Positions 7,947 to 45,932 of a stretch of 64,000 bases of DNA are shown here, in pieces. Below the pieces are notes generated by a model that saw nothing but the letters and a program-made list of their open reading frames with translations, had not been told where the DNA came from and searched no databases. The position numbers and the translations under genes were made by a program. The DNA comes from Lingula anatina (Eukaryota; Animalia; Brachiopoda): contig CM120640.1 in assembly GCA_051362555.1 (NCBI GenBank), forward strand, positions 49,640,788 through 49,704,787. The letters are read 5' to 3'. Positions within the stretch are counted from its first letter, which is position 1. Each line of letters opens with the position of its first letter.

Positions 7947-10900
7947 ATGCCGTCTCAAGAGAACACTGCCCGCCTCAAAGCCTACAAGAACAAGGGAAGA
8001 GATGTGGATGTAAGTTCACCTAAGTTTTAAAACACAGCATATGTCGTCACTGAAGTTTATGCCACATTGGTTCTTGTAAAGTAAAGGATATACATTTGTA
8101 TTAGCTTGGCTCAAATACACCTTTTCAGTTTTGATACCACTTTCTATGTACAGGCACTGCATGGATATGCTACCATTTATAAATGGCTAAGGTTAATTGA
8201 GTTTATATTAGTCATTAAGCCAGCATCTTGAAAGCAAAATTAGAAGCCAGTAATTTATCTTGAGAGTTTTGTTTTCTTTGATTAACCTTTGTGAACCTTT
8301 AACCTCACAATTCTTTTATTTCATGTTTTCCAGGATTTGAGAAGAAGAAGAAATGAAGTGTCTGTTGAATTGAGGAAAAATAAGAAAGATGATCAGCTGC
8401 TAAAAAGACGAAATGTTGCCATTACTGATGAACCAACTAGTCCTCTACAAGAACAAAAACAAGTGAGGCACTTCTCCACTTTTGTATGAAAGAGGGATTT
8501 GAATGTTAAATTAGGGTGGAGAAGAAAGATATCTACATTTTTACTCATTTTGCCGAGTTGTAATTATCATTATTAATATTATTATTATTATTTTTTTTTC
8601 AAATTTAACATTTGATTTTTGGTAATTCCAGAATGTTGGTCTGAGCCTGCAGGAGATAGTGGACAGCATTCATGGCACTGATCCACAGAAGCAGATGATT
8701 GCAACACAAGCTGCCCGTAAAATGTTATCTCGGGAAAGAAATCCACCCATTGATAGCATCATACAATCAGGGGTCATCCCTAGACTAGTTGAATTTCTTC
8801 GTTACAATGACAGGTACTGTCAGGTTTTGGAAAAGCATTTAATTACTATATGAAATAATTAAACACTGAAATGTTTAGACTCCAGGTGCGTGTTTTTTTA
8901 TATTTTATGATGTAAATGCCTTGAATTATGATAGTTTAAGGTACACTCCATTGGTTTGAAAATCTCCAACATGCTTATTTTTGCCATTCGCAGCAGCTTA
9001 TAAAACCTCACAACTTAAAAATGATTTTTGCTGAAGGGTACCTGATGTTGATAATCTGTTAGTGTTTATAGGAAAATGGTCGCAGTTAAAACTTTTATCA
9101 AAAGTAAAGAATTACGAAAATGTTCCATAAAGACTGCAGCTAAAATGGCCTCTCAAAGGATTATGGAACAGCTTTCATTAAAGATTTCTTTTTGCTGGTT
9201 TATTTCAGGCCTGAACTTCAGTTTGAGGCAGCTTGGGCCCTGACCAATGTGGCGTCTGGAACATCCACTCAGACCAAAGCTGTGGTTAATGCCAATGCAG
9301 TGGTACCATTCATAGCACTGCTTACCTCCCCTCATCACAATGTCAGTGAACAAGCTGTTTGGGCAGTTGGAAACATTGCTGGTATGAATTATTGTGACAT
9401 GTGACCTAATATTTTACAAGAAATTCCAAGCAAAATTGTAGCAAGTATGTGTCACTGATGTGTGCGTGCGTGTGTGTGTGTGTGTACCTCTTTAGCAGGT
9501 ATATCAGAAACGTGCAGTTGCTGAGGATTTTGTCCATACTTTTTATCTTCACTGTAGACAGTTTTGCCTCATCATTGATATATGCCTTGAATAGAAATAA
9601 AAAAAATTAGTTACAAGTGTGCCAGGTTGAATGCCCCCCCCTCCCCATTAGCTCTTATTTTTCCATTTGTTAATTGACATGGATTAATGGTGCTGTAAAA
9701 TTGTTGACTTGTGTGAACCAATTTGCACCTTTCTACTACATGTAGGGACTGAAACATTCAACCTCACCATTGCAGTGACCAATTTTCTTGGGAAAACTAA
9801 TTTTAGTACTTGTACTCATTTCTAGGTGATGGTCCTGAAATGCGAGACTATGTGATAAAATGTGGTGCTGTTGAGCCTCTGCTGAGTTTGGTGAAACCAC
9901 AGATTGAGGTAAGAGGAGCAAAAAGGCTATATTTATTATGGATGCCATTATTTCTTTAGAAAGGTTTTATTAGTTCTTGCAACTTGTACATATCTGATTG
10001 GGAAGTTTAAAAGTAAAGGGCTGGTATTGATATCGAAGTAAAGTTTATTGGTAAGTAAATGAAAATGAATTATTTTTATATATACCTTGTCATTTTTAGA
10101 CCTCCTTCCTAAGGAATGTAACTTGGACAATCTCGAACATGTGCCGCAATAAGAACCCTCCTCCCCCCTTTGCTACAGTGAAGCAATGCCTGCCCACACT
10201 GAGTCAACTACTTCTGCACACTGACAAAGAAGTTCTGTCTGATGCTTGCTGGGCACTGTCCTATCTGACAGATGGTACTAATGACAAGATACAGGAGGTT
10301 CTTAACTCAGGTAGTTAACTGATCATTGATACAAGGATGCACATCCTTGATCAGGTTACAGTGCATCTCCTTACACAAGTTTTATTTTTATTTGTCTGTT
10401 TATTATTCTTATTCTTATTAATATTATTGTTATTTGCTGTTTTTTATGAGTGTGACAAATTAAAATGAAGGAACATGTTTTCATTTTCTTTCAAAACAGG
10501 TGTTGTTCCCAGGCTTGTTGAGCTGCTAGCTTCTCCAGAACCATCTATAGTAACCCCAGCACTGCGGGCAGTGGGCAATATTGTTACAGGGGATGATGGT
10601 CAAACTCAAGTAAGTGGAAATGAATACAGAGGCCCTAATCACCTATGAACTCTAGTAGGATGGTTCTGAATTCACTTGCTGTAAAGTGCACATTTTATGC
10701 TTTTTTTTTTTTTTTTTGCTTTCAAAACTTAAGATTTTATTCACTTGCAGATTACTTACAAAAAGCATTATTTATAAAAGAAAACTTTTTGGGCATATTG
10801 ACATTTAAACATAATGGATTTATGGCTGCATGTTACTTTCTAGGCAGTTATAGATGCTGGTGCTGTCCCAGTGTTTAACTTGCTGCTCACCCACTCCAAG

Positions 10901-12008
10901 TCCAGCATACAGAAAGAAGCTGCTTGGACGGTTTCAAATATAACTGCAGGGAACACTCAACAGATTCAGGCAGTACTTGATGCTGGTGTGATACCCAATG
11001 TTGTTAACCTATTGGTCAAGGTGTGTAGAATGCATGCAATGTTTGTGGTTTCTAGCTTTTTGAGAAATGAAATAACATTTATAATAGAACATGCTTTCAT
11101 AGCATTAAATACAAAATAATTATTTACCAACCATTTAGCTTCTGTCTTTATTTTAAGGGAGACTTCAAAACTCAGAAAGAGGCTGTCTGGGCAGTGACTA
11201 ACCTGACCTCTGGTGGAACTGTTGAGCAAATTGTTCACTTGGTTCAGTGTGGTGTTTTACGACCACTTTGTAACCTGCTCACAGCAAAGGAAGCTAAAGT
11301 TATCTTGGTCATTCTGGACGCACTGCAGAATATTCTCAATGTAAGTATCCTAATCTCAAATCTCTTACAGTAAGCTAAATAAAATGTGTGTTGATTATTA
11401 TAATGGATAACTGTGAAATCTGTATATCAAAAAATGAAAAAAAAAAAAAAAGAAGAAATGAGTGTGTAGTTACATTGCCAAGACGGTAACATGGACATGC
11501 CACCCTTCCTCCTCATGATCTTTCAAAATGTTGTAAATTCAATTTGTAGGCTGCAGACAAACTTGGTCAGTCTGAAGCAGTCTGTATCATGATAGAAGAA
11601 GTAGAGGGTATGGAGAAGATAGAAAACTTGCAGCAACATGAGAATGAACAGGTCTACAAAGCAGCCTATGGTATCATTGAAAAGTACTTTGGTGGAGATG
11701 TGAGTACTTCCTTTTGCTGAAGGCATTTCCGAACACTTTCAATAATTTTCCTCTTATGTTTGATTTTTAAACTTAATCCCTTGGAAGTCGGTGCTTTTTT
11801 TGCATATTCAGTCACTGTGTATTAAAAGTAGCCTTATGGTAAGCTTTGCTTTGTAAAATTTGACTGATTTTTTCACTATATTTGCCATGTTTGTTTTCAC
11901 CAGGGTGATGATGAGGATGAAAGCCTGGCACCAACATGCAGTGAAAATAGCAACAATTTTGAGTTCCAACCTGCAACCCAAGTTCCAGCAGGGGGCTTCA
12001 GCTTTTAA
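7947..12008 (+). CDS. KPNA2: Importin subunit alpha (KPNA2 / alpha-2 subfamily), about 521 aa
   Basis: 11 coding exons: 7947-8009, 8334-8462, 8632-8813, 9209-9381, 9826-9908, 10100-10310, 10500-10609, 10844-11020, 11158-11340, 11550-11699, 11904-12008 (1566 nt, in frame). IBB domain (RLKAYKNKG...[27 protein letters not shown]...TSPLQE), ARM repeats ([42 protein letters not shown]), C-terminus GGFSF*. The SPLQE motif and C-terminus favour the KPNA2/KPNA7 clade. Confidence 0.95.
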
Positions 12009-21514: not shown

Positions 21515-22506
21515 AATTAACACTGCAGGTATTGATCAGTTGGGCCTAAATGATGCAGCAGATTCAGTTCCCTGTAATAAAGAGCAAACACAATGATTGA
21601 GGGGTTTCAAAGGGTAATCAGAGGCATTGTACAGTACAGTACGTATCGGTTTGCAAATTCTACATTTACATCTTGAAATCCGATTTTTAAACGAAATATT
21701 TATATAAGTTATAAAGAGTTGAAAGGCATTTTACAGTGTAATGGTCACTGTATGCATCTGCATACAAATTTCAGAGTGAGTACCGTATGTAGCTAAATAA
21801 CACGTCGTTCCTACAGTGCAAAATGACTTAGATTTTCCGTGATCCTTCTGTCCACATCCACACTTCCTTGCATGCTTTCTTTAAGTACCCACGTCAGGCA
21901 AATGTAATCAAAGTCGTAAAAACTTCAAATCTTGGTTGGATTGGTGAATTTTGCACACTTAAATCCCTCAAGAGAATGGAATATATTAATATTGTTAATA
22001 ATGGCCAAAATACATTTGATTCTCGGTTATATACAACAAATTGCCATAGTGTTGTCACAAACAAAGTACCCACTTACCTCCACACATATTACGACTTAGA
22101 AAGGGCGGTCGAACGACGGCAAACACGGAAAGATTCTAGCCAGATTTTATTTGATTCTACTTCCTATTCGAAGGTACGTCAAACACAGAAAATATAGCGC
22201 AGCATTACGAATTGGAAACAAGAAAACAAAGTACTGCATGAGTTGCCAGGCTCCTAGATAACCCTGTTTTCCCACGAGCCTCGTTCAATTTGGCTATTAT
22301 CCTTTTCGCCCTGCCCAACACCAGACTACTCGTGTGCATCTGTTTGTGCGTCCTAAGACTGCGTAAATTGTTAAAAACTAAATGGTTAACCAAAGAGATA
22401 TCACTTAGTGAGTACAGTGACGTGGAATGTAATGTAATTATCGTTGCACAGCAATACATAGCACAAAGTCCCATGCATTAGCACTGCTGTTTACATTTTC
22501 TGTTAA

Positions 22507-26388: not shown

Positions 26389-26772
26389 GATATTGCTTTT
26401 AGACAAATGTCTCACATATAATCAAAACTAGCATGACATTTGTATAAAAGCAGTTTAGATCTGTATGGAACCATACTTGCACTTCATGATGTGAATCAAA
26501 GTGGAAAGAATGCTAACAGGAGATTGACTGAAGATTTTTATCAGGTGTATAGTAGGAGGTGGCATGAGATTCTGAATTGCATAATTAATTAAAAGGTGAC
26601 TTCATACATATAACGTTCAAATGAAAATTGAGCATTATTTTTGATTTTGCTGATTATTTTTAAACCCATTTTAATCCAGTCCATAATTTAGAATGCAGCA
26701 TTAAATCTGAATTGATTTGCCTTTTTCAGCATATCACTAAGTCACTGATCAGAATAGAAGATAGCACTGACC

Positions 26773-26930
26773 ATGTGTGGGTGTTGTGGGTGTGGGGATG
26801 ATGGAAAGGTACGTATATATATATATTTACTGTTTGCCACATTAACAAAAAAAATTGTGGGTGTAGTGTGTCAGTAATTTATTGTATAGAACATATGGGT
26901 TATTTTCCTGACTGTCTACCATCTTATGCA

Positions 26931-26961
<31 letters not shown>

Positions 26962-29900
26962 GAAAAAATGACCTTTTTACCTCCTTAGTTAACCCTGTTT
27001 GATAAGTGGTATAGACCCTACATTTGTAGATCAGATAATATACAAAAAGCACTCATGCAATGTGATAATGGTACACCAGTTATTCTCTGAAAGTAAATGG
27101 GATTCCATGGATGACGAGATGTATTATCCTTTCAGTGGTATCATCAGTATGTCAGTTAACATCTCAAAAAGAAGGGAATAATCTGTTTCATTCATTTTGT
27201 GAGCTTTGCTAACAAATTGAGTGGCATATGGATTTTTTTCATGAAGTGAGAAAGTGACAAATAGTAATAACAGTATTGAAAGTTAAGAATAAACCAGGTG
27301 AAATAATGGTCTTTTTTAGTATAAGTGGGGGCTAACGGGGGAATAGAATAGTTTATAGGTATTATTAGCAGCCCTTGGGTTTTCAACATCAAACATAATT
27401 TATGTTGCACTTGCAGCTTCAGGACAGATTGAGCAAGATGGATGTTGTGTGGCATTGCTAGGGAGCTATCCATGAGATCTCCTTCAACATATTTGGTGCT
27501 ACAGTGTAGTTTTTGTTCAGATTTTTTACTACTTTTGCAGTTTTCTGTGCCATAGAGCAAAGTGTTTTAATGCTTATGTTTCATATCTTTATATTTCTTA
27601 AAATCCTTTTGCCTTCTATTTTTGAAGCTAAAACTGATGCTTTTTGCTGGGAGCATCCAGGCTATGAATTATATGGCTGTTGTAATGATAATGGACTCTC
27701 TCTCAGTGCATGACTCATAGAATGCACCTATAATAACAATAAATACTGTCTACAGAATATGTGGAGTGTGCCTGGATGATCCCGGTACTTTGCACAATAA
27801 CACAGAACCAATCATCTTTTTTTTCAGTCTTGCTAGTGTTAGTGTAGAATATGTACTGTAGCCTAAGTCTTGGGTCTAATTGTTTTATTCTTATAATATA
27901 GTAACCTTAGTACCTAGCAATAAGACAGAAAGAGATATTTCCCTTTTTATTTCACTGTATATTTCTCAGTACTGCAAGGTACACCATTATATATTGGCAG
28001 TGTTCATCCTCCTGCCCTGATAATTCAATAACCATTCCTGTTAGGCTTGCTGGAGTCAGCTAAGATGCTTTATCACTTCAGTAAAAGTGACAAGTGCAGT
28101 ATTCCTTGCAATTACTCTTGCAATTTGCTTAACTTTCCATGGCATCTATCAGGTTATAATCATTGATTTATTTCCTCAGTGCAATGGCAAATGAAAGCAG
28201 TATTTCTACACAGATGTTAGATGATGGTATTAGCCTTTTTCATCTTTTCCGGAAATTGAAATTGCATTGTGGGAAGGGGAGCCCTGCTACGTCGAAACAC
28301 TTACAGCGGTGCTAAAAACCATGGCTGGGTTTACGTGCTTTTTGTCCCGCTACTACAATAACAGTAAGCGAGATCGACACATGAGGTTTAATAAGTTCCC
28401 AACAAACCCGTTAGAATGAAAAATATGGTAGAAAGAAAGGAAAATATAGCAGGTTTGGATCAAAAGCAGGGCACCGCGTTTGTGCTGAACATTTCGGGAA
28501 GAAAAACTATAATATTAGGAGATCAACGGTGCTTTAATAAAATACAGAAATGCTTAGTTAAACAACGGATATAACGAACTATCGGCAAATAGAACTCGGG
28601 GGTAAAAAATGCGAGAAAAAAAAACATTATAAAGATTTGAAGAAAAAATTGAAGAATAGGCCGGGGCCTAAAAATTAAGAAAAGACTTCAAGCATGAGAT
28701 TATGGAAAAAGAAAGTAAAAGCTGTGAAGTTTTACACGGGGATACTACTTACAAAAAATTCAAGAACTTTCACGACTTTTTGTGTAACAACAAAGAGAAG
28801 GTTTGAAAAGTTTTGTATGTAATATCCTTTTTGTGTGTGTTTTATTGATAAGTGATCATTTTAAATGTTGTAGGCCCATCACAGGTTTTAGTCTCTCATA
28901 ACCCTTAGCAGGGTGGGTTCTATTTTTTTTTTTTTTTTACGTGAGACGTTAATAAAATTTTTATTATTATGTATTCAGTCCCGTATACGTATTACTGATT
29001 TGTACAAACGGGGCTCATATATCAAGATCAACAGAGACATACGAAGAAGAAAGTAAATCGGCTCTTGTTGAACGCGTTATCGGCGAAATAAAAAGTTATT
29101 TATTTCTGAACTCAATGACAAGAGAATTGGAAAATACAAAAAATGCAGAATAGCCTTTCTGTAAGCTACACGTACATAATACATGTATGGTAAAGACAAA
29201 ATGGATAAAAAACATAATCCAACAACGTATTTGTAAAGTAATACAAATATGCTTAGTATCAAAGTAGGCCTACGTATATTTAACTGTCTTAGATAGTTGA
29301 AAAGTATGAAATGTGTGGGAAACACTTTATTTGAATGATTTAATTGTCTGTGATTGAAAACGATGAAAATACGCATGAAAACATTTAAAAGTCAAATAAT
29401 TTGGCCTCTTGCCATAATTTTGTTTTTGTTTCAGTTTGACAAAATTTTCATACTTGTCAGACCGAAAGGCTGACATTTTTTACCTGTCGTAAATTTTGTA
29501 CATATACTAGAGTAAGACACGGTAAACTTAAATTATCGTCTGGGAAAGAGTTGAGAATTCCTGTCTCACCTATTTAACACTTAAAAGGTTTTAATTACAG
29601 AGGAAAGGTCGTAGTTGTTGTCTGTGTGAAATAGGGGCATTACCGAACAATTGAACAAGTAACACCTGATGCCTTATCAGGTACCAAACGATTTAATCAG
29701 TTCACCGACGAACGATCTGCGTGTCAGTTTTACCTGTATACACAGTAGCTACGAGTCAAACAATGCAGGAAATCTTTTCATTTTATCACTTTAAAAATCT
29801 CTTAAGATATCCTTCAAACAAGACATAAAAATCGTAATGAATTGACACTGCCGGTACATGAGGTGATATCGCCACAGCTTGCATATATACATGTACAAAA

Positions 29901-32900
29901 TTGTGAAGACGTAGGCCTGCGCACCTGTCCACACTCTTGAAAGCTGTGTACGAGTCTACTGGCTATTTTGATTTATAAAAAAATAACGAGTCTCTTTCGC
30001 ATATCTTTATTATCGGAAGCATTTAAAAGAACTCAGAAGCTTTAGTTCGTCATCACTATGGAAAGTACAGCCAAGGCTCGGACGCTTAGGTGAAGTCTAG
30101 TTGTAAAGCGCATCGTATTTAAACTGAGAAAGAAAATATTTGATTGCTTGATTCTCCGTCCAAATAGCTGTTTCTTGCCTACAGTTTACGCGTTTCTGTG
30201 CTTCAGCCACCTTTTTAGTTTGACAGAAAGCAACGCACGCTTCATACGACCTTTTTATATGCGCACCTTGTACATCATCTACACCTAGCATTGCCATGCT
30301 GGAAACAGCAGAGGACCACTATGACCCCTGTGGCGCGCGGTTCCTGTCATGCGCACTTCGTATTTCCGCAAAAGATGAAAAAGGTTAATTGTTCACATAC
30401 AGAATGTTACATACTCATAGTGTCAAATTATGTCACTTGAACGAATGGCTATAAAAACGAATGGCTATAAAAACTTCAAACTTAAATGACCCCCTACCCA
30501 ATCTTGGTTGCTAGGTGATGTTCAGGGTTTTCTCCCTGCCCATATCTTGGCTGCCCAATAAGTAATTTCTTTAATATTGTCTGTAATTAAAATTATGCAT
30601 CCTGAAACTGATTTTAGCAAGTTTCTCCACATTTGATTTAGAAGCTACATATGTCTCATTTCGAATAGATCAGTTAATTATGAATTTAAGGGAATGGCAT
30701 AGATATGTTTTTCACACACAGTGTCAACTTAATAAGCACAATCCAACATATGTTTGTCACTGGTCAGTGCTGTTTCCACCGAGGCACAGTTGGTAAATCT
30801 TCTAAATTTCTGTGCACAGAAAGTGTTTAGGCACAGAACAAGATTATTATAACACTAAAAAGCCATTATTTTACTATATCCATAATATTAGAGCAAGGGT
30901 GTGAAACCAGTGCAAGGTAACACTCAATATAAGAGATTTGAGGCCATATCATTTGTGATAGTGGTAGATGTGTATTGGTCCCCAGTGAAGTATTTTGAAC
31001 AAAAACTTTGAACATTTGATTGCATCTTTTGCTTCAAGATGGTGTTTTTTATTGCCACTTTTGAAAAGAAAAAGGTTTGTGGCTGTGTGGTAATATTATG
31101 CTATTCACTAGATTATATTGTGCATAGTTTTGGTTGAACGCAGGGTAATTGTGTGCCTATTTGGAAGGACTTCTTATACATTCATATTTGATATTGGAAG
31201 AAAGTACACAGTTTATGTGCAATAGTCATTCTTAGATAATAATAATATTTTGTAATGAAAGTAATTTGAAAACCTGTAAAAAATTCAGAGACTTAAATCT
31301 TCCATATTATTTGTTGTAGGATACAGAGGATGGTGGGCAGAGAGGTAGCAATCCCATGGTAAAGAAGAGGGGATGCACAGATATAATTGTCCTTGTTGTC
31401 TTCATTCTCTTCTGGGTGGGAATGGTAAGTTTTTTGTAGAGGAAGAGGAGTCAGCGTTGTTATTTTTACCAATCCAAAGGGATAATTTAGTTAAATATCT
31501 CATATTGTCCATTTAATAAGATTGTTCTGTCAAGGTATTTTAGAAATTTTTCCAGAATTAGGAAATGTGCTATCTTAGATCATTCCTTATTGTTTTAGGA
31601 TCATATTGTTATAGGTAAATTGCATGTAGGCAAGAATAAACAATAAACCAAGTTTTGCCATCTGTTGACTTTGTTTGTTTTTATCTTAGAAATTTAGAGT
31701 CCGCAGAGGCAACAGATATGGATACCCCCATTTACTGTATCTGCCTATGTAGTATGTTTGTATTCCAGGTATATATAACTGTCTTTTCCATCATGAATGG
31801 TAGAATATGGACCATGTTCTATGGTTATGACAGCTTTGGTAATGCTTGCGGCATGCAAAACATACGTGAAGTTTCATCAAATTTCAGTGGCAGAGACAAC
31901 ACCAATGAAAAGTAAGCCAATATTGTGATGAATACATCATATGAATTACCCCTTTATTAAGCATGCTTATTTTATTATTTGCAGATATATATTGCTGTTT
32001 ACTCAATAGTGAATGGTGATGCTTTTCGTCTTTTATACGGTTACGATAGCTATGGTAATACATGTGGTGAAAAGAATGAAATGACAGTTATGTCTAACTT
32101 CAGTGGCAAGGATTTTCATGATCGCAAGTACGTTGATTTTTTTTCACTTGATTTCACCTTTTTTAGCTAAGTAACTTTGCCATTGCTGAAATCCTAGGAT
32201 TCTCCATAGTATTATGTAGTTTTCACTACCAATCATTTCAGATTGGGAATATGTCCTCCAGTTATGAAGACATATTATCTCGATTTAAAGTTCATTTGTG
32301 ATATTAAGTGCCTAGAGCTCCAGTAATTGATCAAACTGCATAAGTATGCAGTATTAAGGGTAATTCAGTCAATATGAATTTGCATTGTGTCACCTTATTC
32401 TTGTTGCTCTGCTTACATGACTAAAAAGGGCAAAATGGGGTGTCTTTATCACGAAGGCAAAAAAAAAAAAAATGCACAAAAAATGGCTTGTAATGCAAAG
32501 AACTAAAACACATTTGAACTCTGAAGGGGAGGAGGGGGTTACATGTTGTGGCCCATCCTGGGAGATGTCATAGATATAGCTTACAGACCGCTTGCATAGT
32601 AGAAGTCCCTAGTAATATTTCCTAGTGGTGATTAATATGTGCATGGTATGTGGTTCCATTGGTATGCAGTATTAGGATTAGCAGTTGAGCAATATAATGA
32701 TTTTGTAAAATTTGAAACTTTTTCCTCAACTTATTTTAATTGCACACTATTTAACTAATTGTTTTAATTTGCTCAAGTGAAGCTAGAGTTAAATTTTTTT
32801 GACAATTTGTCTTACAGGTAATTTCTAAGCATAAACAGATCTAAAAGATTAAAATTCCAATCCATATAATTGCACTTATAATTGATCAGTAGTTATAAGC

Positions 32901-34447
32901 CTGATTAGCTTATTTTAAATTGGCTTTAAAACTAAAGGAATCTACTCTAAAACATCATGAAAAACGAGTCCTTTTATTTTTATAGCCCATTAATTGCTAG
33001 AAGGCCTAAGGTTTAAGATTGTCTCTCTCTTCCACATCTGTCCCAGTTCAGACTACTCACTAGAATGCATTTTGTTTTCATAAAAATAACTCTTTCTAAA
33101 TTATTCCATGTGCATGTTTTCTATGAATTGATTCTTTCAGATATGTATTTTTTATGGACATTATTCGACCCAAGTCTTCCTTGGAGGTGTGTGTGGAGAA
33201 ATGTCCTGACAGGGAACTGAAGAATGCCCAGGAGTTGATAGCATTTTACAATGAGACAGGTGTCAGCCTGACCAGATATGACATTACACCTTATGAGTGT
33301 ACAGACAAAGACTTACAAAATACCAAGGGACCATGTCCAGTGTTCCCCGTGCATCACAGGTTATTATTTAACTTTATTTATTTGGTATTCAGATGTTTCT
33401 ATTCATGGGTATGATGCAAAGTGGGGTCATCACATTTGTAGTGGTTTAGCATGAGAGATATTACACAAATTATTTGTGTCAGAGTAAATGGTAGTCAGCT
33501 ATATTGATGTAGCGGATATCTCTAGCTGTGCTGTAGTGGGCACTGGAAATAGATCTTTGCAGTAAGTGCTTTTATTTTTTTTCAGAAAATTCAAAAACAT
33601 TTTTGAAGAGGCCTGGCCTCATTAAAATTACCAATGAGTGAAATTAGAAACTCTGTAATAAAAAAAAATTATTCTCAAAACAAAGATAATACTGCTGCAG
33701 GACAAAAGCTTTGAGCAGCTCAGTGGTGGCCTCCTCTATTAATTTAGATTTTTGTAAAGAATAGACTCTGAATGTACTCAATCGTTCATTCATTCACAGT
33801 TACCTTTGATATACTCTCCTTATTGTAAATACATGTACATTGTAAGCATTATTTTTCAGTGCTGACATTCTCTCAAGATGTATCCCAGCCTCTTTTTCCA
33901 ACTTTACCAGCAACCTCAAAGAAACTGTTCTCGGATACCTCAATGAGTTTGACATCTTTCGCTATGTCATTGCTGACTTATATGCCAGCTGGAAGCTTAT
34001 GCTGCTGCTGGCAGGAATAGCCTTTGGTAAGTATACCGCAAAACACTAATATCATGATGATAGACTTCTTTGTGTGTAATGCAGTTCTATTTCAATTTAT
34101 TATCAGTCAGAATTGCTTTGGTGATTATTTTGCTAAAGAGAATTGAATTCTAATAAATATGGAATAGTGATGTGATGGATATTTGATTAGTTATGCTGAG
34201 CATGTTTTGCTTGATGATTCCAGTGTTGGCCATAGCAGTGGTTGTCCTGATACGTTTTATTGCATCTGTAGTTGTGTGGGTCATTCTTGCTCTGGCCATA
34301 ATAGGCAGTTTAGGTAGGTCATGATGCGACTCTCTCTCTTTTCTCTCTCCTTTTAAAGTTTAATCATATGTATATATTAACATTTTATATTATCAAAAGA
34401 GCTAAAATGCAACTCCATAGCAGTGTAGTGTACGTTAAAACAACAAC

Positions 34448-34478
<31 letters not shown>

Positions 34479-37400
34479 AGTGGTCAAGTACAGAATTAGA
34501 CACAGTGGCATTTCCTTGCCATGCAAATAATGAAATTTTTTTATGTCAGCGGGCACTGGTTTTCTATGGTGGACTTATGTTGAAAAGAAGAATTCCATGG
34601 ATATGAAAACTGCCAATGAAATTCCATTCCTGCAGATAGAAATTGACAGTGAAAATGCATTTTTGGCGTATTCCATAATTGCAACAATCCTTACGGTGAG
34701 AGTCATATATTAAAAAGAAATGATTATAACTATTACAACTTTTATGTGCTGAACATTTAAGATGTATTAGTTTAACAACAAGGTCACAAAAATAAATTGA
34801 ATGTAAAGATGTTTTATGTACACATTTGTTTTATTTTGAAATTATTTGCTTGAGTTTTGCAGTGAATGTTGAGTATTTTAAGTTTCTATTCCAGGTAATT
34901 TTGTTATTGGTAATTTTGGTCTTGAGGAAGCGTATAGCACTGGCGGTGGCTCTCTTCAATGAGGCAGGAAAATGCATTGTAGCTGTGCCCATGATTCTGG
35001 TGCAACCAGTGTGGACTTTCATTTGCTTGATTTTGTTTTACGTGTACTGGGTGGTAGTGCTGGCTTATATCTCCACTGCTGGTAAGATGATATACAATAT
35101 ATATCAGCATTGTTGTGGGATGTGGTAGAATGATAGTGTATAAGAGTGACACATGAGTGACATGAAGATGTGGAAGGATCACACATAGTTGTTGCAATTA
35201 TTCTATTAATTTTTTATAAATATCTGCAGATAAAATTAGCTACAATCATCAATAGATCAATGAAAATGATATTAATGCACATGCTATCAAAATATTTAAA
35301 AAAACAAAGAAAATGTGATGATATACTCTTTTTGTTGCATTGTTATCCAGTTCCCTTTTCTCTGTCCAGGCACTGCTGTGTTGGATAAAGACACAGGTTT
35401 TGTGAACTATGAGGAGAGCCAGCCAGTAAGGTACATGTGGTGGTACCACCTGGTGGGCCTGATATGGACCAGTGAGTTCATTATTGCCTGTCAACAGCTG
35501 GTGGTGGCTGGGGCTGTGGCTAAGTGGTACTTCACCAGGTAAGGGAGGGGATTCAGGGGAATTCCACAAGTACTGCTGAATTAAGGAAATGATAGTCACA
35601 ACATGTATGTTATGTGTATTAGACTATTTCTCGAAGTACTATAGGTGAACATTTTCTTCTTTTTTTTAGAATTGAAGAATTATTTCCAATTTTATAACTA
35701 TCAATTGATATATTTCTCAACACCTCTCAGAAATCCAGTTTTCTATCATTTGTCAGAATCAAGGTCATGTTATGTTAACTTTAGAACACTGTTTCACCTG
35801 CAATGTGTGTTGTTACAGAGACAAGAAGACCCTGAAGAACCCCTTGGGTGATGCTGTCTGTATGCTTATTCTCCATCATATGGGATCTGTGGCATTTGGG
35901 GCCTTCATCATCACACTTGTCAAGCTGCCTAGGTGGATTCTCATGTATCTACACGAAAAGTAGGTGAATTGGTGTAACTTGGTACTTCAAAAGGCGCAAG
36001 TGATGCCAATTGAATACCATTGACAGTTCTGTCTTTAGATGTTACCAAATATTTTTGAGAAAATTAAAACATATCTTGGACTGAAATGTGCCATTTCATC
36101 ACTATTTATTTGTTTCAGGCTCAATGGCAGCCAGAACAAGTGTGCTCAGTACTGTCTGAAATGCTGTATCTGTTGTTTGTGGTGTCTAGAGAAGTGCCTG
36201 AAGTTTCTCAATCAGAATGCTTACACTATTGTCGGTAAGGAAATTGAAGCATGGTTAGAGTTTGAACAAGTAATTAATCTCAATAAAGTTATTTGAGTTA
36301 TTTGTTAGGAAACTTCAAGGTTTTTGTTTGCATCTGAAAGGAAGGCAAAATCTGGGCTATTTTGCCTCTTTCGAGCTATTAGTCTCAAATTTCTTATAAT
36401 CACTCTATTTTCCTAGCCATAAGGGGCACCAACTTCTGCTCCTCTGCCAGGAAGGCTTTCACCACTATAGTGTCCAATGTCTTGCGTGTGGCAGCTATTA
36501 ACAGTGTTGGTGACTTCATCCTGTTCCTGGGCAAGGTGGCAGTAATGACTGGCACAGGGGCTATAGGAGTACTTATGTTCAAGGTAGTGTGACCATCTGC
36601 TGCAGGATAGATATTGCTATTTTTTAGAAAACTTCTGCGGGTAGTTTATTGAGGATATATGTTTCAATGATATTTTGCTTTCGTATAAGATTGTTTATTA
36701 AAAATTTGTTCAGCATTTTATTGAATAGTAGATGTAAATATGTATTAATCACAGTATTTGATTTTTATAGTGATGTTTGATGTCAAATGTTAAATGAGAA
36801 ATGTGTGTTTGCTTATTATGCTGTGCTTGTAGAACCTGTTGTAACTTCAGAAGCAATGGAATATTTTTCTCAATTGTGTGAATTGTTTCAAATTAATATG
36901 CTGTAAAGAATTTTTATATCAATACATGTTATAAGTTAATGGTTTAAACATAACTTTTTTGTGGTTACCAAAAAAGATGAGAAAAATATGTCAAGGCTTC
37001 CATGTTTGTTGTACGATGAATTGTAGATGCCTGTTAATTAATTGCACAAGATATTGTAGTTTTTACCAAAATAAAGCGTTTACATCAGAATGTGCAATTT
37101 CAAAAGATGTGCTGATAGTTTGACTTCTTGCAGGTGTTCCTCTTCCTGTGTGATTTCTGCAATTCAACCACAAATCCAAAATGAAATTGCTCTCTGTGTG
37201 TTTCTTATTATCCATCTTTTTTTTTTTTTTTGTATCTTATTTCTTCCGTGTTTATTTCTTGTAGGGTGACCCTCTGTTAAATTACTTCTTCGTTCCTGTG
37301 ATAGTAGTCTGCTTGTTCGCATACTTTATTGCACATTCTTTATTAAGTATGTATGAGGTGAGTATACATGACTTTTCAGACAGGCATGCTTATGCATTCT

Positions 37401-39516
37401 TGTGGCAGTCTCCTTGTCCCTCGTAGGCTCTCGTAGGAAGTTTTGGGTGTGGGTTCATTTTCTTCAATTTTTTGATGTCTTTATGTCGTGGTTCATAGGA
37501 TATAACTGCATTGCTAATATTGGAGTATTTGACTTCAGACTATTGGGACCATTGCTTTGTGTTTGATCTATTACTTTTTCTCATATAAAATCTTAACCAT
37601 CTGCCCAAACATGAAGTCATATATATCCACGTGCACTGCTATGTCTTATGAATTGTTCCAAAGACATTGAAAAGATGCCATAGGGTTAACCATTTGTCAT
37701 TCATTTCAGGGAGATCCCAATCTACACTACTTTTTCATTCCCGTACTACTTGTATTTGTGTTCTCATATTTTATTGCCCATGGGTTTTTGAGTATATATG
37801 AGGTAAGTTTAGCATTTGAAGTAAAAGAGAACACTTACAATTTTTTTTTAAGGTGAAAGGTATTTTCTTATCCTGTTGTCATGGGTGGATTTCATTTTCT
37901 TGTCTATTTTTGCTGTTTTGGGGTACATTCAGACATTTTACATTCCTCACTATTAACTTCAAAAAGCTTAACACTTATCCATTATTATTATTTAATTTTA
38001 ATAATTTTTGTGATAAATGTTTTGTATCACACTTACTTTGTTTTTTTTTTTTTTTTTTATTTTAAGAAAACGCTATAAAATATTTGTCATAGCTCTTTAT
38101 TAAAAATTCTGTCATAATGAAAGAAGTGATCCTCAGTTATGAAAGTTTGTTCTGACTTCAGAGAAGAGAAATATCTGTCCAGTGCATTTTTTAAATAACA
38201 CCTCTGAATTTGGAATTTGAATTTGGTTAAAGCTAAAGACTATTTAATATTTCTTAATGATTTCTTAATGATTTTGTTAGAATTGTTCCAGGGGTCAAGT
38301 TTGCTGTTACAACACAGTGGAACATACCACTTTGTTTTGTGATATGAATTTTTTTTTTGATGGCCATTTTAGCATGCTGCTTACACATGCAAAATGGATC
38401 CTAGCCATGTATCATAAGGTAATAATGCCCCTATAAGCAAACTTGACCTCTGTACAAGAAAACTATTAAAAGTGACCCACTCACTGGCCAAGTGTCCTTT
38501 CAGATGGTTATTGATGCCTTGCTCCTGTGCTTTTGTGAGGACTGCCAGATCAATGATGGTGTCACTCCTGGCAGAGAGTACTACATGGACCCCTCACTTA
38601 TGGTAAGCCTTGGCCCATTAATCTTATCCTTCTGTCTTGAACAAGTTTGGCATGAGGGACCTACTGATGATCACTTGGGTAACATCAAAAGGAACCAATA
38701 ACTTGTTTGTGTCAGATTTTTTCAGTCAAATTCTTAAGGTTGATTGTTGTCTGGAGGATTGAGTCTTAGACCCCATTCCCAGAGATTAGACAGGGATGCT
38801 AGTCTTCCGGTTTTTACCGGAATTCCGGTTTTTTGCGTCCAGTTATAAAATTTTCTGGTACTATATTTTGTTCCGGAATTCTCGTTTTTAACGTTGTCGC
38901 GGACTGGACGAACGATGCGTCAGAGGAACGTCGCATTTCAACCATTGCGACAGAGCTGCGTTTCAACACAATATCTAGTCACAACCGTAGCACGTGATTT
39001 ATTTATGGCGCTTGATTGGTTGGAAATGTAGGCTTTAATGTCGGCACCCATGTGGAAAGTTTTGACACCGCGTGCGCGGAATTTTGAACTAAACCAAACT
39101 AAATGGATTTCGCGGAGAGGGAAACAGACGATATTAGAAACATCGACATTACTGTCAAAAATAGATTTAGTTGGAGTTTTAGAAACTTTGATTAATGAGA
39201 CTGCAGTTGGAGCCCCATTGTTGCTTGGGCATTACCACGAAAGCCCTATACCAATCTTTGAAAATGATAAATGAAAGGGATTAACATTTAGTGACTATCA
39301 TTATCATGCTGGTGATTATCAAGCTTACGTGAGGGATCATTACTGTCTACTATGGGTGGTAGGTGTTTATGTACTGATGGCACTTCCATCTTGTCAATGT
39401 CAAGATTATCCTTGGAAACAACTGTTGAAAATAACCATGAAGTTGTGATGACATATATTGCAATATATTTATTAAATAAAATTTGAAATATAGTAATTGT
39501 TTCATAATCAATTTGT

Positions 39517-39564
<48 letters not shown>

Positions 39565-40147
39565 CTTTGCCAAAAAAAAGTTCAGGTTTTCTTTCCGGAC
39601 CCCACTAGCATCCCTGGATTAGATCGATCCAACTAGATCGGCCTAACTCCCTGGGGGTTCACATTAAATAGCTGTCAGCCAAGCGGACACGAAAGTTAAT
39701 TACCCCCTTACAGCTTGTAGTAGGCGGGACGGACTTTTAAGCCAGATTATCAGACAGTAATCTAGTGAGACTCCCCATAGGGATAGATCGATCTAAAATC
39801 TATGGGAATGTGCCCTTAATTATTAAGTGTGGCTGAATTGTAATCAGTTCTAGGCATTTCAAAAATGTGCTCAACTGCAGAAAGATGCACATATGTACAA
39901 AGCATAAAAAATATGAAGCAAATATGAAAAGAAAGAAACAATTTTGGTATCTTCATTTAAGAAATTTGTGAAGAACAGCAGTGAAGCTATTGCAGCCCTG
40001 AACAAGCGTCGAGATGGTGGTGGTGAAGACGTGACAGATGGAGGCGTGCCAGCCCGTGAGTCTACACCTCTGCGTGGGGAACAACCATCTCCTGGGGGAA
40101 AGGCAGATGTGACAGACGATCAGCAGCAAGAGACTGCAAGGATTTAG
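26773..40147 (+). CDS. SLC44A1: Choline transporter-like protein 1 (SLC44 family)
   Basis: Exons: 26773-26808, 31320-31424, [31769-31911 or 31985-32127], 33141-33359, 33860-34026, 34224-34313, 34550-34695, 34895-35081, 35370-35538, 35819-35959, 36119-36234, 36417-36583, [37265-37357 or 37710-37802], 38504-38602, 39962-40147; phases consistent. Motifs [108 protein letters not shown]. Confidence 0.93.
28231..30387. mobile_element. Decayed THAP-domain DNA transposon (ISL2EU / PIF-Harbinger group) in an SLC44A1 intron
   Basis: ~25-bp TIRs TAGCCTTTTTCATCTTTTCCGGAAA / TTTCCGCAAAAGATGAAAAAGGTTA, flanked by AT on both sides; THAP remnant on + and a convergent ORF remnant (30097-30297) on -. Confidence 0.75.
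28321..28800 (+). pseudogene. Disrupted THAP-transposase N-terminus
   Basis: MAGFTC...[16 protein letters not shown]...*KIW...GHRVCAEHF (THAP C2CH pattern with F..FP, W and CxxHF) and a downstream FYTG motif at ~28730; contains in-frame stops and frameshifts. Confidence 0.7.
31769..31911 (+). CDS. SLC44A1: SLC44A1 alternative exon 3a (143 nt)
   Basis: CCAG|...|GTAAGC; encodes [47 protein letters not shown](K). Confidence 0.8.
31985..32127 (+). CDS. SLC44A1: SLC44A1 alternative exon 3b (143 nt)
   Basis: GCAG|...|GTACGT; encodes [47 protein letters not shown](K). Confidence 0.88.
37265..37357 (+). CDS. SLC44A1: SLC44A1 alternative exon 13a (93 nt)
   Basis: GTAG|...|GTGAGT; encodes [31 protein letters not shown]. 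Confidence 0.85.
37710..37802 (+). CDS. SLC44A1: SLC44A1 alternative exon 13b (93 nt)
   Basis: TCAG|...|GTAAGT; encodes [31 protein letters not shown]. Confidence 0.85.
38769..39815. mobile_element. MITE family B copy split by a nested insertion
   Basis: Termini (A)GACCCCATTCCCA ... TGGGAATGTGCCC with TTA flanks; the 3' part is homologous to 13708-13925. Confidence 0.7.
38791..39616. mobile_element. Non-autonomous DNA transposon with CAGGG termini (hAT- or P-like), nested in MITE B
   Basis: Perfect 13-bp TIRs CAGGGATGCTAGT/ACTAGCATCCCTG; 7-bp direct repeat GATTAGA at 38784-38790 and 39617-39623; long poly-C tract near the right end. Confidence 0.85.
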
Positions 40148-43021: not shown

Positions 43022-45932
43022 AAACTAGAGGATCAGAGAGGCGATACCGCCTCCGAATATTGTACCACCAGCTGGAGCAAGCGCATTCGTATAGACCCCC
43101 ACATACACAAAATAAGGGACATAGCCACCAGTTTTGTGCTTGACAAGCTGTAAAAATGCAATCAACAAGAATTTTTAAACTATTGCAAAAAATATATATG
43201 GTACAATCAAATTTAAGTTCTTCGTAAGGTAGGTCAAGGGTCAATTTCAAGGTCACAGTAAATTGCCAGTATATGACTTCCTATTCAAGTTCAAGAGTAA
43301 CTATGGACCTATCTCTGTCAAGTTTGAAGTTAAAAGGGAAAGAAATTAGCAGAGTTCAGTTCATGATAAAAAGTAGGTCAAAGGTCAATTTCAAGGTCAC
43401 ATTTAGATTGCCAGTATATGACTTTCTATTCAAGTTCAATAGTAACTATGGACCTATCTCTGCCAGTTTTGGAGATAAAAGGGAAGCAAAATTTGCAAAG
43501 TTCAGTTTATGGTGAAAAGTAGGACAAAGGTCAATTTTAATGTAACATTTATAATGCTAGTATATGACTTCCTATTCAAGTTCAATAGTAACTACGGACC
43601 TATCTCAGCCAGTTTTGGAGATAAAAGGAAAGCAAAATTTGCAAAATTCAGTTTATGGTGTAAAGTAGGTCAAAGGTCAATTTTAAGGTCACATTTAGAT
43701 TGCCAGTATATGACTTCCTTTTCAAGTTCAATAGTAACTATGGACCTATCTCTGCCAGTTTTGGAGATAAAAGGGAAGCAAAATTTGCAAAGTTCAGTTT
43801 ATGGTGAAAAGTAGGTCAAAGGTCAATTTTGAGGTCACATTTAGATTGCCAGTATACGACTTCCTATTCAAGTTCAATAGTAACTACGGACCTATCTCAG
43901 CCAGTTTTGGAGATAAAAGGAAAGCAAAATTTGCAAAATTCAGTTCATGGTGTAAAGTAGGTCAAAGGTCAATTTTAAGGTCACATTTAGATTGCCAGTA
44001 TATGACTTCCTATTCAAGTTCAATAGTAACTATGGACCTATCTCTGCCAGTTTTGGAGATAAAAGGGAAGAAAAATTTGCAAAGTTCAGTTCATGGTGAA
44101 AAGTAGGTCAAAGGTCAATTTCAAGGTCACATTTAGATTGCCAGTATATGACTTCCTATTCAAGTTCAATAGTAACTATGGACCTATCTCTGCCAGTTTT
44201 GGAGATAAAAGGGAAGCAAAATTTGCAAAGTTCAGTTTATGGTGAAAAGTAGGTCAAAGGTCAATTTTAAGGTCACATTTAGATTGCCAGTATATGACTT
44301 CCTATTCAAGTTCAATAGTCACTATGGACCTATCTCTGCCAGAGATAAAAGGGAAGCAAAATTTGCAAAATTCAGTTCATGGTGTAAAGTAGGTTAAAGG
44401 TCAATTTTAAGGTCACATTTAGATTGCCAGTATATGACTTCCTATTCAAGTTCAATAGTAACTATGGACCTATCTCTGCCAGTTTTGGAGATAAAAGGGA
44501 AGCAAATTTTGCAAAGTTCAGTTTATGGTGAAAAGTAGGTCAAAGGTCAATTTTAAGGTCACATTTAGATTGCCAGTATATGACTTCCTATTCAAGTTCA
44601 ATAGTAACTATGGACCTATCTCTGCCAGAGATAAAAGGGAAGAAAAATTTGCAAAATTCAGTTCATGGTGAAAAGTAGGTCAAAGGTCACTTTCAAGGTC
44701 ATAGTAAGATTGCCAGTATATGACTTCCTATTCAACTTCAATAGTAACTATGGACCTATCTCTGCCAGTTTTGGAGATAAAAGGGAAGAAAAATTTGCAA
44801 AGTTCAGTTCATGGTGAAAAGTAGGTCAAAGGTCACTTTCAAGGTCATAGTAAGATTGCCAGTATATGACTTCCTATTCAAGTTCAATAGTAACTATGGA
44901 CCTATCTCTGCCAGTTTTGGAGATATAAGGGACTAAATGTTATAATTTTGGAGTTACCATAATGTGCCTTAAATTTCGTACAGAAAAAATTAATTAAAAT
45001 AAAAAAAATGTCATTTTGGTCAAAATTCTTGAAATAGGAGGTGCTCTGAAGTTTCAGAAGTTCAAATTTGATGAAATAATGTCATTTTTGAACACAAGTT
45101 GTCTGCTTTGCCAAGCCTTATGTTTTATTTTTCCAGAGTTCAAAATTTATTATCCATTACCGTACTGCACATTTTGCTTTTACCACCAATATGCACTTTT
45201 TGATACAGCGTAACTCGAAAACCGTATGGAATACAAAAAAACCGAGACCACCTCCAGTGTTGGGCTTTACATGCTCTACAAAATGCAAAAAAGAATGGGT
45301 CTCTAGCATTAACGGTTCCCGAATTAGAGACAGTTTTCAGTTTCGGTATCTTATGGCCGCTACTCCCGTGAAAATGCACCGATTGACCCCAAATTCATGG
45401 AGATGAAAGATGACCTGAAGGGTAACACCTTCCAATAATATTATTGGTTAAGTCTGTGTGGTGTCTGAATAACAGGGCAAAAAAAATTTTTTTCGTAAAA
45501 AATTTAATTTTTTTGAAAATTTTGGCCCATTTGACCTTGAAGTAAAGGTCAAAGGTCAAATCCAAAGGTATATTTGAAATCTACACATATGACTTTTGGA
45601 AAGCCGTCTATAGAAATTTTTCCCATAACTCCTTCCGTAGGGTAGATAATTAGCATTTAATTTTGCCATTTTTAGACAAGGGTGCATTGCAATGAGTGCC
45701 ACACCCAGACCCCAATACCGACAAAGCCCAAATTTTACGTGGAACGAGTTGAGATTATAGGTGACCTAAATCCATGAGATGGGTACGGGGGCCCTTACCG
45801 TCTAGGAGGAGAAGCGGTAACGGTAGCCGTCCGGCGGAGCCAACGGAGCCGGCGGAGCCGGCGGAGCCGGCGGAACGATCCGGACGGGACCGAAACCATG
45901 TGTACCGCCAGCGCTAACGCTGGTGGTACAAT
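43022..45932 (+). mobile_element. Helentron-associated non-autonomous element (HINE / 'pearl'-like) carrying a satellite array
   Basis: Starts AAACTAGAG in an A/T site; central 146-bp tandem array; GC-rich microsatellite (CCGGCGGAG)x~5 at 45831-45873; 3' hairpin TGTACCGCCAGCG-CTAA-CGCTGGTGGTACA at 45901-45930, followed by ATAA. Confidence 0.7.
43225..44930 (+). repeat. Tandem array of ~12 units of 146 bp (two units are 140 bp)
   Basis: Unit starts at about 43225, 43371, 43517, 43663, 43809, 43955, 44101, 44247, 44387, 44533, 44673, 44819; consensus AAGTAGGTCAAAGGTCAATTTTAAGGTCACATTTAGATTGCCAGTATATGACTTCCTATTCAAGTTCAATAGTAACTATGGACCTATCTCTGCCAGTTTTGGAGATAAAAGGGAAGCAAAATTTGCAAAGTTCAGTTTATGGTGAA. 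Confidence 0.97.

What the first reader, a model, noticed from the sequence alone, without database searches (positions are those of the whole stretch)
31769..32127. Mutually exclusive exon pair 1 in SLC44A1 (end of TM1 and start of the large extracellular loop)
Seen: two homologous 143-nt exons with the same phases (0 to 2), both open and with good splice sites, only 73 nt apart. Peptides: [28 protein letters not shown]...SNFSGRD versus [28 protein letters not shown]...SNFSGKD. Including both would shift the frame, so they should be mutually exclusive. The GYDS.GN.CG motif and the NFS glycosylation sequon are kept despite heavy nucleotide divergence, which suggests purifying selection on both. 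Exon 3a replaces the family-typical GD..RL motif with GRIWTM, hinting at a functionally different isoform. I do not know of such exons in vertebrate SLC44A1.
Basis: partly seen in the sequence, partly recalled or inferred. Interest (0 to 1): 0.75.

Follow-up and report, generated by a model that had tools for sequence, protein, structure and literature searches.

The report
Swappable exon pair in brachiopod CTL1
The CTL1 (SLC44A1) membrane-protein gene of the brachiopod Lingula carries two diverged copies of one exon, RNA reads splice either copy between the same neighbours, and one copy has lost an arginine kept in nearly all relatives, which likely alters the lipid-binding outer domain; this is real but a known kind of alternative splicing, already present in the automatic annotation.

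Summary
Confirmed. Exons 3a (31769-31911) and 3b (31985-32127) are homologous 143-nt, phase 0-2 exons of Lingula anatina CTL1, 73 nt apart. In 8 RNA runs, 207 reads join 3a and 312 join 3b to the same flanking exons; no 3a-3b or skipping joint is listed (some weak joints were hidden). The 3a share is 40-54%, 12-21% and 0 of 13 reads in three studies. RefSeq isoforms X2 and X5 already carry the two exons. 3b is family-typical. 3a evolves faster but keeps 11 of 13 conserved residues; it has Thr where 208 other full-length homologues have Arg (human R57, reported to latch the TM5-6 loop to the extracellular domain). Exclusion is likely enforced by the short intron (best branch point 49 nt from the 3a donor), with decay of frameshifted products as back-up; this is inferred. 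The pair was found in none of 29 other species' isoform sets. But CTL1 has other swaps: bivalves at the exon holding the phosphatidylserine-binding arginine, Lingula plus echinoderms and a hemichordate at TM10. New member of a known kind; no paper found. Interest moderate.

The parts
31769..31911 (+). Exon 3a, alternative copy; residues 48-95 of RefSeq isoform X5 (end of TM1, start of extracellular domain); Thr62 instead of the family Arg, Arg at 59
   Evidence: joints
31985..32127 (+). Exon 3b, family-typical copy; residues 48-95 of RefSeq isoform X2
   Evidence: joints
31912..31984 (+). 73-nt intron between the copies; not seen spliced or retained; the other 15 introns measured in the gene are 159 nt or longer
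31955..31961 (+). Best branch-point candidate for exon 3b (predicted branch A 31960, 25 nt before the acceptor, 49th base of the intron)
   Evidence: simple consensus scan; not mapped experimentally
32328..32365 (+). Intronic stretch complementary to the branch point and acceptor of 3b (lead only)
   Evidence: -23.5 kcal/mol, 3 of 150 shuffles as good, 1 of 14 control acceptors as good
31320..31424 (+). Shared upstream exon (most of TM1)
33141..33359 (+). Shared downstream exon (extracellular domain)
37265..37357 (+). Second pair, first copy (93 nt, TM10 region, residues 564-594; in isoform X2)
37710..37802 (+). Second pair, second copy (93 nt; in isoform X5)
26730..40147 (+). CTL1/SLC44A1 gene from first coding exon (ATG 26773) to stop; 687 aa; a 5' non-coding exon ends near 22173

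Best explanation
Exons 3a and 3b are a tandem duplicate of one CTL1 exon, both spliced between the same neighbours in Lingula RNA, and they give two equal-length proteins that likely differ in how the extracellular lipid-binding domain is latched to the membrane part. Shown: either exon is used, in sample-dependent ratios; both keep the fold-defining Gly, Asp, Cys and Asn residues and the Tyr that binds phosphatidylserine in human CTL1; 3a has Thr at the Arg that in human CTL1 (R57) stacks on F375 of the TM5-6 loop, and a new Arg three residues earlier. Inferred: the duplication happened on the lineage leading to Lingula; 3b kept the ancestral role while 3a diverged under partly relaxed constraint; the 3a donor and the 3b branch point are too close for one spliceosome to join them, so a transcript takes one exon; rare double or skipped products are frameshifted and would be removed by nonsense-mediated decay. 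Which factor chooses the exon is unknown.
For: Joints: 207 reads for 3a and 312 for 3b over 8 runs, no 3a-3b or skip joint among those listed; depth in the bin holding the 73-nt intron is explained by exons alone. 3a share 0.54, 0.40, 0.49 (study P1), 0.12, 0.21, 0.17 (P3), 0 of 13 reads (P2); on distinct read starts P1 vs P3 p=0.015, P1 vs P2 p=0.003. pN 0.34 < pS 0.80, 1 of 2000 bootstraps reversed. 3a keeps 11 of 13 positions conserved in at least 47 of 59 homologues against 13 of 34 elsewhere, p=0.008. Arg62 in 59 of 59 aligned homologues and in all 208 other full-length proteins where the motif was found (3 lacked it; many are isoforms or mammals). Human R57, Y62, F375 map to Lingula 62, 67, 378; their roles are from bioRxiv 10.64898/2026.10.02.755950. 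3a and 3b are sisters, support 85/28, end branches 0.92 and 0.34. A donor-branch point distance under 50 nt is a recognised steric cause, 9% of human clusters (PMC5740500).
Against: No protein, lipid-binding or localisation data for either isoform. The Arg is not universal: Lys in 10 and Leu in 2 of 64 metagenome loci. 3a scores 58.5 bits on the family profile, below all 59 leave-one-out homologues (lowest 60.6), which also fits decay. The branch point is a guess at the threshold (49 nt; a second candidate lies at 58 nt), and the threshold is a human figure. Weak joints were hidden (1, 14). Tissue, stage and population of the runs are coded, and P3 reads differ from the window at many sites, so ratio differences may be genetic. 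Sister grouping is weakly supported; no named brachiopod or phoronid homologue was available.
Confidence: 0.7

Rival explanations
1. The splicing is real but 3a is a tolerated, slowly decaying spare copy: it gives a weaker or equivalent protein with no distinct role.
For: 3a carries more unique changes than 3b against every one of 59 outgroups, has the lowest profile score and lost the conserved Arg and Leu; a non-synonymous variant I79T is seen in about half or more of reads in runs X1 and X2; it is the minor form in two of three studies.
Against: Open frame, exact length and splice sites kept while flanking introns show no similarity (20/60 and 17/60); 11 of 13 conserved residues kept, probability 0.035 to 1e-6 under neutral drift of 0.3 to 1.0 changes per site; about half of transcripts in study P1.
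Confidence: 0.22
2. Mutual exclusion is set by competing RNA structures: an element at 32328-32365 pairs with the branch point and acceptor of 3b and loops 3b out, while a stretch inside 3b (32078-32099) can pair with the 3a acceptor.
For: First duplex -23.5 kcal/mol, 3 of 150 shuffles as good, pair probabilities up to 0.98 in the ensemble; region z = -2.17; the second is the longest inverted repeat of the region.
Against: 1 of 14 control acceptors pairs as well; 2 constitutive sites of 30 also beat 40 of 40 shuffles, and the 3b-3a pairing is matched by 7 of 40 shuffles; no related genome to test covariation; nothing comparable at the second pair.
Confidence: 0.15
3. Assembly artefact: two haplotypes or paralogues merged in tandem.
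For: None found.
Against: 51% amino-acid identity is far beyond allelic; both exons are joined to the same flanking exons within single runs; 3a itself shows two alleles in X1 and X2.
Confidence: 0.01

Closest known systems
Mutually exclusive homologous exons / tandem duplicated exon substitutions (PMC5740500, PMC9741552, PMC4494069; passages read)
   Same: Adjacent homologous exons of equal length and phase, one used per transcript, key residues kept, sample-dependent use, membrane protein host; convergent origin in orthologues is well described.
   Different: This gene and exon are not described in those papers as far as seen; one change here (Arg to Thr at a near-invariant site) is drastic, whereas most reported changes are conservative.
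RefSeq Lingula anatina CTL1 isoforms X2 (XP_013403883.1, P0003) and X5 (P0006)
   Same: Contain 3b and 3a letter for letter.
   Different: Automatic models only; no statement on exclusion, usage or function.
Vertebrate SLC44A2/SLC44A5 homologous 3' exons (PMC4494069 table; SLC44A2 in PMC9741552 supplement)
   Same: Same protein family, homologous alternative exons.
   Different: Different paralogues; cytoplasmic C-terminal tail, terminal exons, not the extracellular domain.
Human CTL1 structures (7WWB, 9QU3; bioRxiv 10.64898/2026.10.02.755950; PMC13160678)
   Same: Best solved relatives, E 1e-182 over residues 3-641; Y62, R175, H584, E591, D595 equivalents kept.
   Different: No alternative exon at this place known; both 2026 papers argue CTL1 is not a choline transporter, one that it binds phospholipids.
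OGDH 4a/4b type, exclusion by a branch point near the upstream donor (PMC7969005, search listing and start of abstract only)
   Same: Exclusion by donor-branch point proximity.
   Different: There distant branch points in a longer intron; here the whole intron is 73 nt and the branch point is only predicted.

Membership tests
Mutually exclusive homologous exons | Adjacent exons homologous, same length class and phase, own splice sites | tested here: met
Mutually exclusive homologous exons | Each exon joined to the same upstream and downstream exon in RNA | tested here: met
   all four joints, 519 reads
Mutually exclusive homologous exons | No exon-to-exon joining and no joint skipping | tested here: met
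   Not among listed joints. One search hid 1 joint, most likely 36583>37265, which the listed 37357>38504 joint requires and which is missing; one search hid 14 weaker ones, and lists skips of 70 and 72 nt, so short skips are detectable. Poly(A) RNA would under-count decayed products.
Mutually exclusive homologous exons | Both copies under purifying selection | tested here: met
   paralogue comparison only, no orthologous 3a
Mutually exclusive homologous exons | Tissue- or stage-specific use | tested here: inconclusive
   Ratios differ between studies but sample labels are coded
Mutually exclusive homologous exons | Pair conserved in related species | tested here: inconclusive
   0 of 29 other species' isoform sets, 0 of 64 loci with an intact second copy; no named brachiopod or phoronid in the sets
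Steric (branch-point) exclusion | Donor to branch point under about 50 nt | tested here: inconclusive
   Best candidate at 49, next at 58; lariats not mapped
Docking-site/selector exclusion | Conserved competing intron duplexes with compensatory changes | not testable with these tools
   One weak duplex; no related genome held
CTL1/SLC44A1 | PF04515 domain and best hits named CTL1, with the large TM1-TM2 extracellular domain | tested here: met
CTL1/SLC44A1 | One-to-one orthology to vertebrate SLC44A1 rather than co-orthology with SLC44A3 | not tested
   No family tree with SLC44A2-5 was built

The most novel reading that the evidence does not exclude
CTL1 is a repeated target of exon duplication in marine invertebrates, and each swap sits on a newly defined lipid-handling element: Lingula 3a drops the R57 latch beside the phosphatidylserine pocket, the bivalve alternative exon replaces the phosphatidylserine-binding R175 equivalent (Tyr or Val), and Lingula plus echinoderms and a hemichordate swap TM10, which lines the phosphatidylethanolamine cavity. 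Splicing would then switch lipid recognition of a protein whose function is an open question, giving natural on/off variants to test it.
Probability: 0.3. Interest if true: 0.62.

Novelty: new member of a known kind. Interest (0 to 1): 0.38.

Why it matters
For this pair alone: a clean, expressed example of exon duplication in a little-studied phylum, of modest weight. More useful: two 2026 structure papers argue that CTL1 is not a choline transporter and one finds it binding phospholipids through the very region these exons encode. Natural isoforms that differ only at R57 (Lingula), R175 (bivalves) or TM10 (Lingula, echinoderms, a hemichordate) are ready-made paired variants for asking what the extracellular domain does.

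Tried and rejected
No whole genome was held, so no genome-wide intron sizes or branch-point model. The run search listed no indexed RNA holder; 9 raw-read runs came by species label, 8 were laid, X6 was not. One search used a looser likeness and a longer stretch, which filled the joint table with repeat-derived rows. Search for a 3a orthologue: the word-based search gave only the Lingula isoform (1 of 2 candidates); phmmer over 1.84 billion representatives gave 10 hits, 7 ordinary CTL1 exon fragments and 3 unrelated repeat proteins. Metagenome scan: 68 loci, 4 dropped as non-CTL, none of 64 with an intact second copy; 37 have 500 nt or more on both sides by a rough count, many are near-duplicates, and the pattern favours family-typical exons. 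AlphaFold models did not separate the isoforms. The 3a-acceptor/3b duplex was rejected as chance-level. A tree of the 27-residue TM10 block was unresolved. Third copies of exon 3 and a second copy of the bivalve-type exon in Lingula: none by tblastn (middle of the output was cut). Literature searches: 1 paper, other SLC44 genes; 2 listings, unrelated by title; listings only, nothing on this gene; 0; 1, unrelated. Earlier scan notes: none.

Full report
What is there. The window holds a complete CTL1/SLC44A1 gene on the + strand. Exon 3b matches RefSeq XP_013403883.1, choline transporter-like protein 1 isoform X2 of Lingula anatina, letter for letter; exon 3a matches isoform X5. The gene model rebuilt from the window differs from X2 at 1 of 687 residues. 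Both proteins carry PF04515 and align to human CTL1 over residues 3-641 at E 1e-182. Exons 3a (31769-31911) and 3b (31985-32127) are 143 nt each, AG/GT bounded, phase 0 to 2, and encode residues 48-95: the end of TM1 and the start of the extracellular domain, which spans residues 53-211 in human CTL1. They share 81 of 143 bases and 24 of 47 residues; their flanking introns share only 20 of 60 and 17 of 60 bases.

RNA test. Eight public poly(A)-type or unspecified RNA-seq runs, three studies, 6 to 30% of each read, were laid on the gene. Reads per joint, order X1, X2, X3, X4, X5, X7, X8, X9: 31424>31769: 34, 18, 32, 0, 0, 4, 11, 2; 31424>31985: 35, 35, 27, 5, 7, 17, 23, 7; 31911>33141: 47, 26, 28, 0, 0, 0, 3, 2; 32127>33141: 34, 32, 36, 1, 0, 11, 29, 13. 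That is 207 reads for 3a and 312 for 3b. No 3a-3b joint and no skip joint is listed. One search hid one joint, most likely 36583>37265, since that joint is required and missing; one search hid 14 weaker joints. Depth gives no sign of intron retention. The 3a share is 48% in study P1, 18% in P3 and 0 of 13 in P2; on distinct starts at the 5' joint the three differ at p=0.001. Sample labels are coded and P3 reads carry many fixed differences from the window, so tissue and population cannot be told apart.

Selection and origin. pN 0.34 against pS 0.80, though only 4 of 9 strict four-fold sites differ. 3a keeps 11 of the 13 positions conserved in at least 47 of 59 homologues; that is unlikely under neutral drift (p 0.035 at 0.3 changes per site, 0.001 at 0.5). 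The two copies are asymmetric: 3b scores 81.1 bits on a profile of 59 homologues, 3a 58.5, below every leave-one-out score (60.6-98.7), and 3a has more unique changes against all 59 outgroups. In a 50-column tree the two are sisters with weak support, 85/28, end branches 0.92 and 0.34. None of 29 other species' RefSeq isoform sets swaps this block (18, 11), and none of 64 CTL-type metagenome loci shows an intact second copy. So the duplication likely arose on the Lingula lineage, at an unknown date, since no named brachiopod or phoronid was available.

What the swap changes. Arg62 is present in all 59 aligned homologues and all 208 other full-length proteins in which the motif was found (3 lacked it; the set is redundant); 3a has Thr and gains an Arg at 59, a residue seen in 0 of 59 there. 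In metagenome loci the site is Arg in 52, Lys in 10, Leu in 2 of 64, so it is not absolute. Using a lemur CTL1 whose numbering matched all 13 residues checked, human R57, Y62, R175 and F375 map to Lingula 62, 67, 174 and Tyr378. A 2026 preprint (10.64898/2026.10.02.755950; abstract and sections 6, 7, 8, 10, 11 read; supplements closed, and the R57 contact is drawn in one) reports that R57 makes a cation-pi contact with F375 tying the TM5-6 loop to the extracellular domain, that Y62 and R175 bind a phosphatidylserine head group, and that no choline transport was detected. PMC13160678 (abstract and section 8 read) also suggests a non-transport role. Both Lingula exons keep the Tyr and the N85 sequon (glycosylation predicted only). 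The inference is that 3a makes a folded CTL1 with an altered latch next to the lipid pocket; the AlphaFold models neither support nor deny this.

How exclusion likely works. The 73-nt intron is less than half the next shortest intron measured in the gene (159 nt). Its best branch-point match lies 49 bases from the 3a donor, a second at 58. PMC5740500 (passages read) uses under 50 nt as the steric criterion, met by 9% of human clusters, and notes that 60% have lengths not divisible by three. Double inclusion, skipping and retention all give stops more than 1500 nt before the last junction, the usual trigger of nonsense-mediated decay (established knowledge). Steric block plus decay is my reading; an RNA duplex hiding the 3b acceptor is a weak lead.

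Wider pattern. The same gene has a second pair, 37265-37357 and 37710-37802 (93 nt, TM10 region), both spliced to 38504 (70 and 61 reads in 4 runs), pN 0.20 and pS 0.69; being frame-neutral and 352 nt apart it needs another mechanism. The same TM10 block is swapped between isoforms in 7 of 7 echinoderm and hemichordate sets; a tree could not tell shared from separate origin. In 13 of 14 bivalve sets a third block, Lingula residues 169-223, is swapped, and the alternative form replaces the R175 equivalent by Tyr or Val. These swaps are read from protein isoforms, not from genomic DNA.

Comparison and verdict. This meets the tested features of mutually exclusive homologous exons. Convergent exon duplication in membrane proteins is well described (PMC9741552, passages and its one held supplement). 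In the human catalogues seen, SLC44 entries are SLC44A2 and SLC44A5, not SLC44A1; supplements not held may list more. Searches found no paper on this pair, but most subscription papers are outside the library. The exons are already in automatic annotation. Verdict: real, expressed, selected; a new member of a known kind; interest 0.38, rising to about 0.6 if the three swaps prove to switch lipid recognition.

Noticed in passing
window 37265-37357 and 37710-37802: Second mutually exclusive pair (TM10), frame-neutral; the same block is swapped in isoforms of Glandiceps, Acanthaster, two Asterias, Strongylocentrotus, Antedon and Apostichopus, so it may be ancient or convergent.
   Followed up: partly
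window 33860-34026 (single exon here); bivalve proteins P0008/P0124, P0014/P0130, P0133/P0136, P0151/P0038 and others: Bivalve CTL1 isoforms swap a 55-residue block matching this exon in 13 of 14 species sets; the alternative form lacks the arginine that binds phosphatidylserine in human CTL1.
   Followed up: partly
window 31863: T>C variant in exon 3a (I79T) in 27 of 54 and 26 of 33 reads of runs X1 and X2.
   Followed up: no
window 37573-37700: Run X7 has reads in the intron before exon 37710, suggesting retention or unspliced RNA between the second pair.
   Followed up: no
window 32339-32356 and 32657-32674: An 18-nt direct repeat in the intron after 3b; the first copy overlaps the stretch complementary to the 3b branch point, the second pairs much more weakly (-13.4 kcal/mol).
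   Followed up: partly
window about 22150-22173: 5' non-coding exon of CTL1 found from read ends; it lies head to head with a minus-strand gene whose reading frames look UTP14-like (name recalled, not tested).
   Followed up: partly
window 28100-30450: Run X5 has stranded depth of 2-9 inside the long intron, with many differences from the window; repeat-derived reads or an unannotated transcript.
   Followed up: no
L004:676-1100 and L005:685-1241: Broken partial copies of the exon-3 5' half lie upstream of the intact exon, amid simple repeats: failed tandem duplications of the same exon in another animal.
   Followed up: no
window about 43230-44940: Tandem satellite array with a unit of roughly 140-145 nt.
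   Followed up: no
window about 8300-11720: Importin-alpha-like gene on the + strand, seen in the six-frame translation (name recalled, not tested).
   Followed up: no
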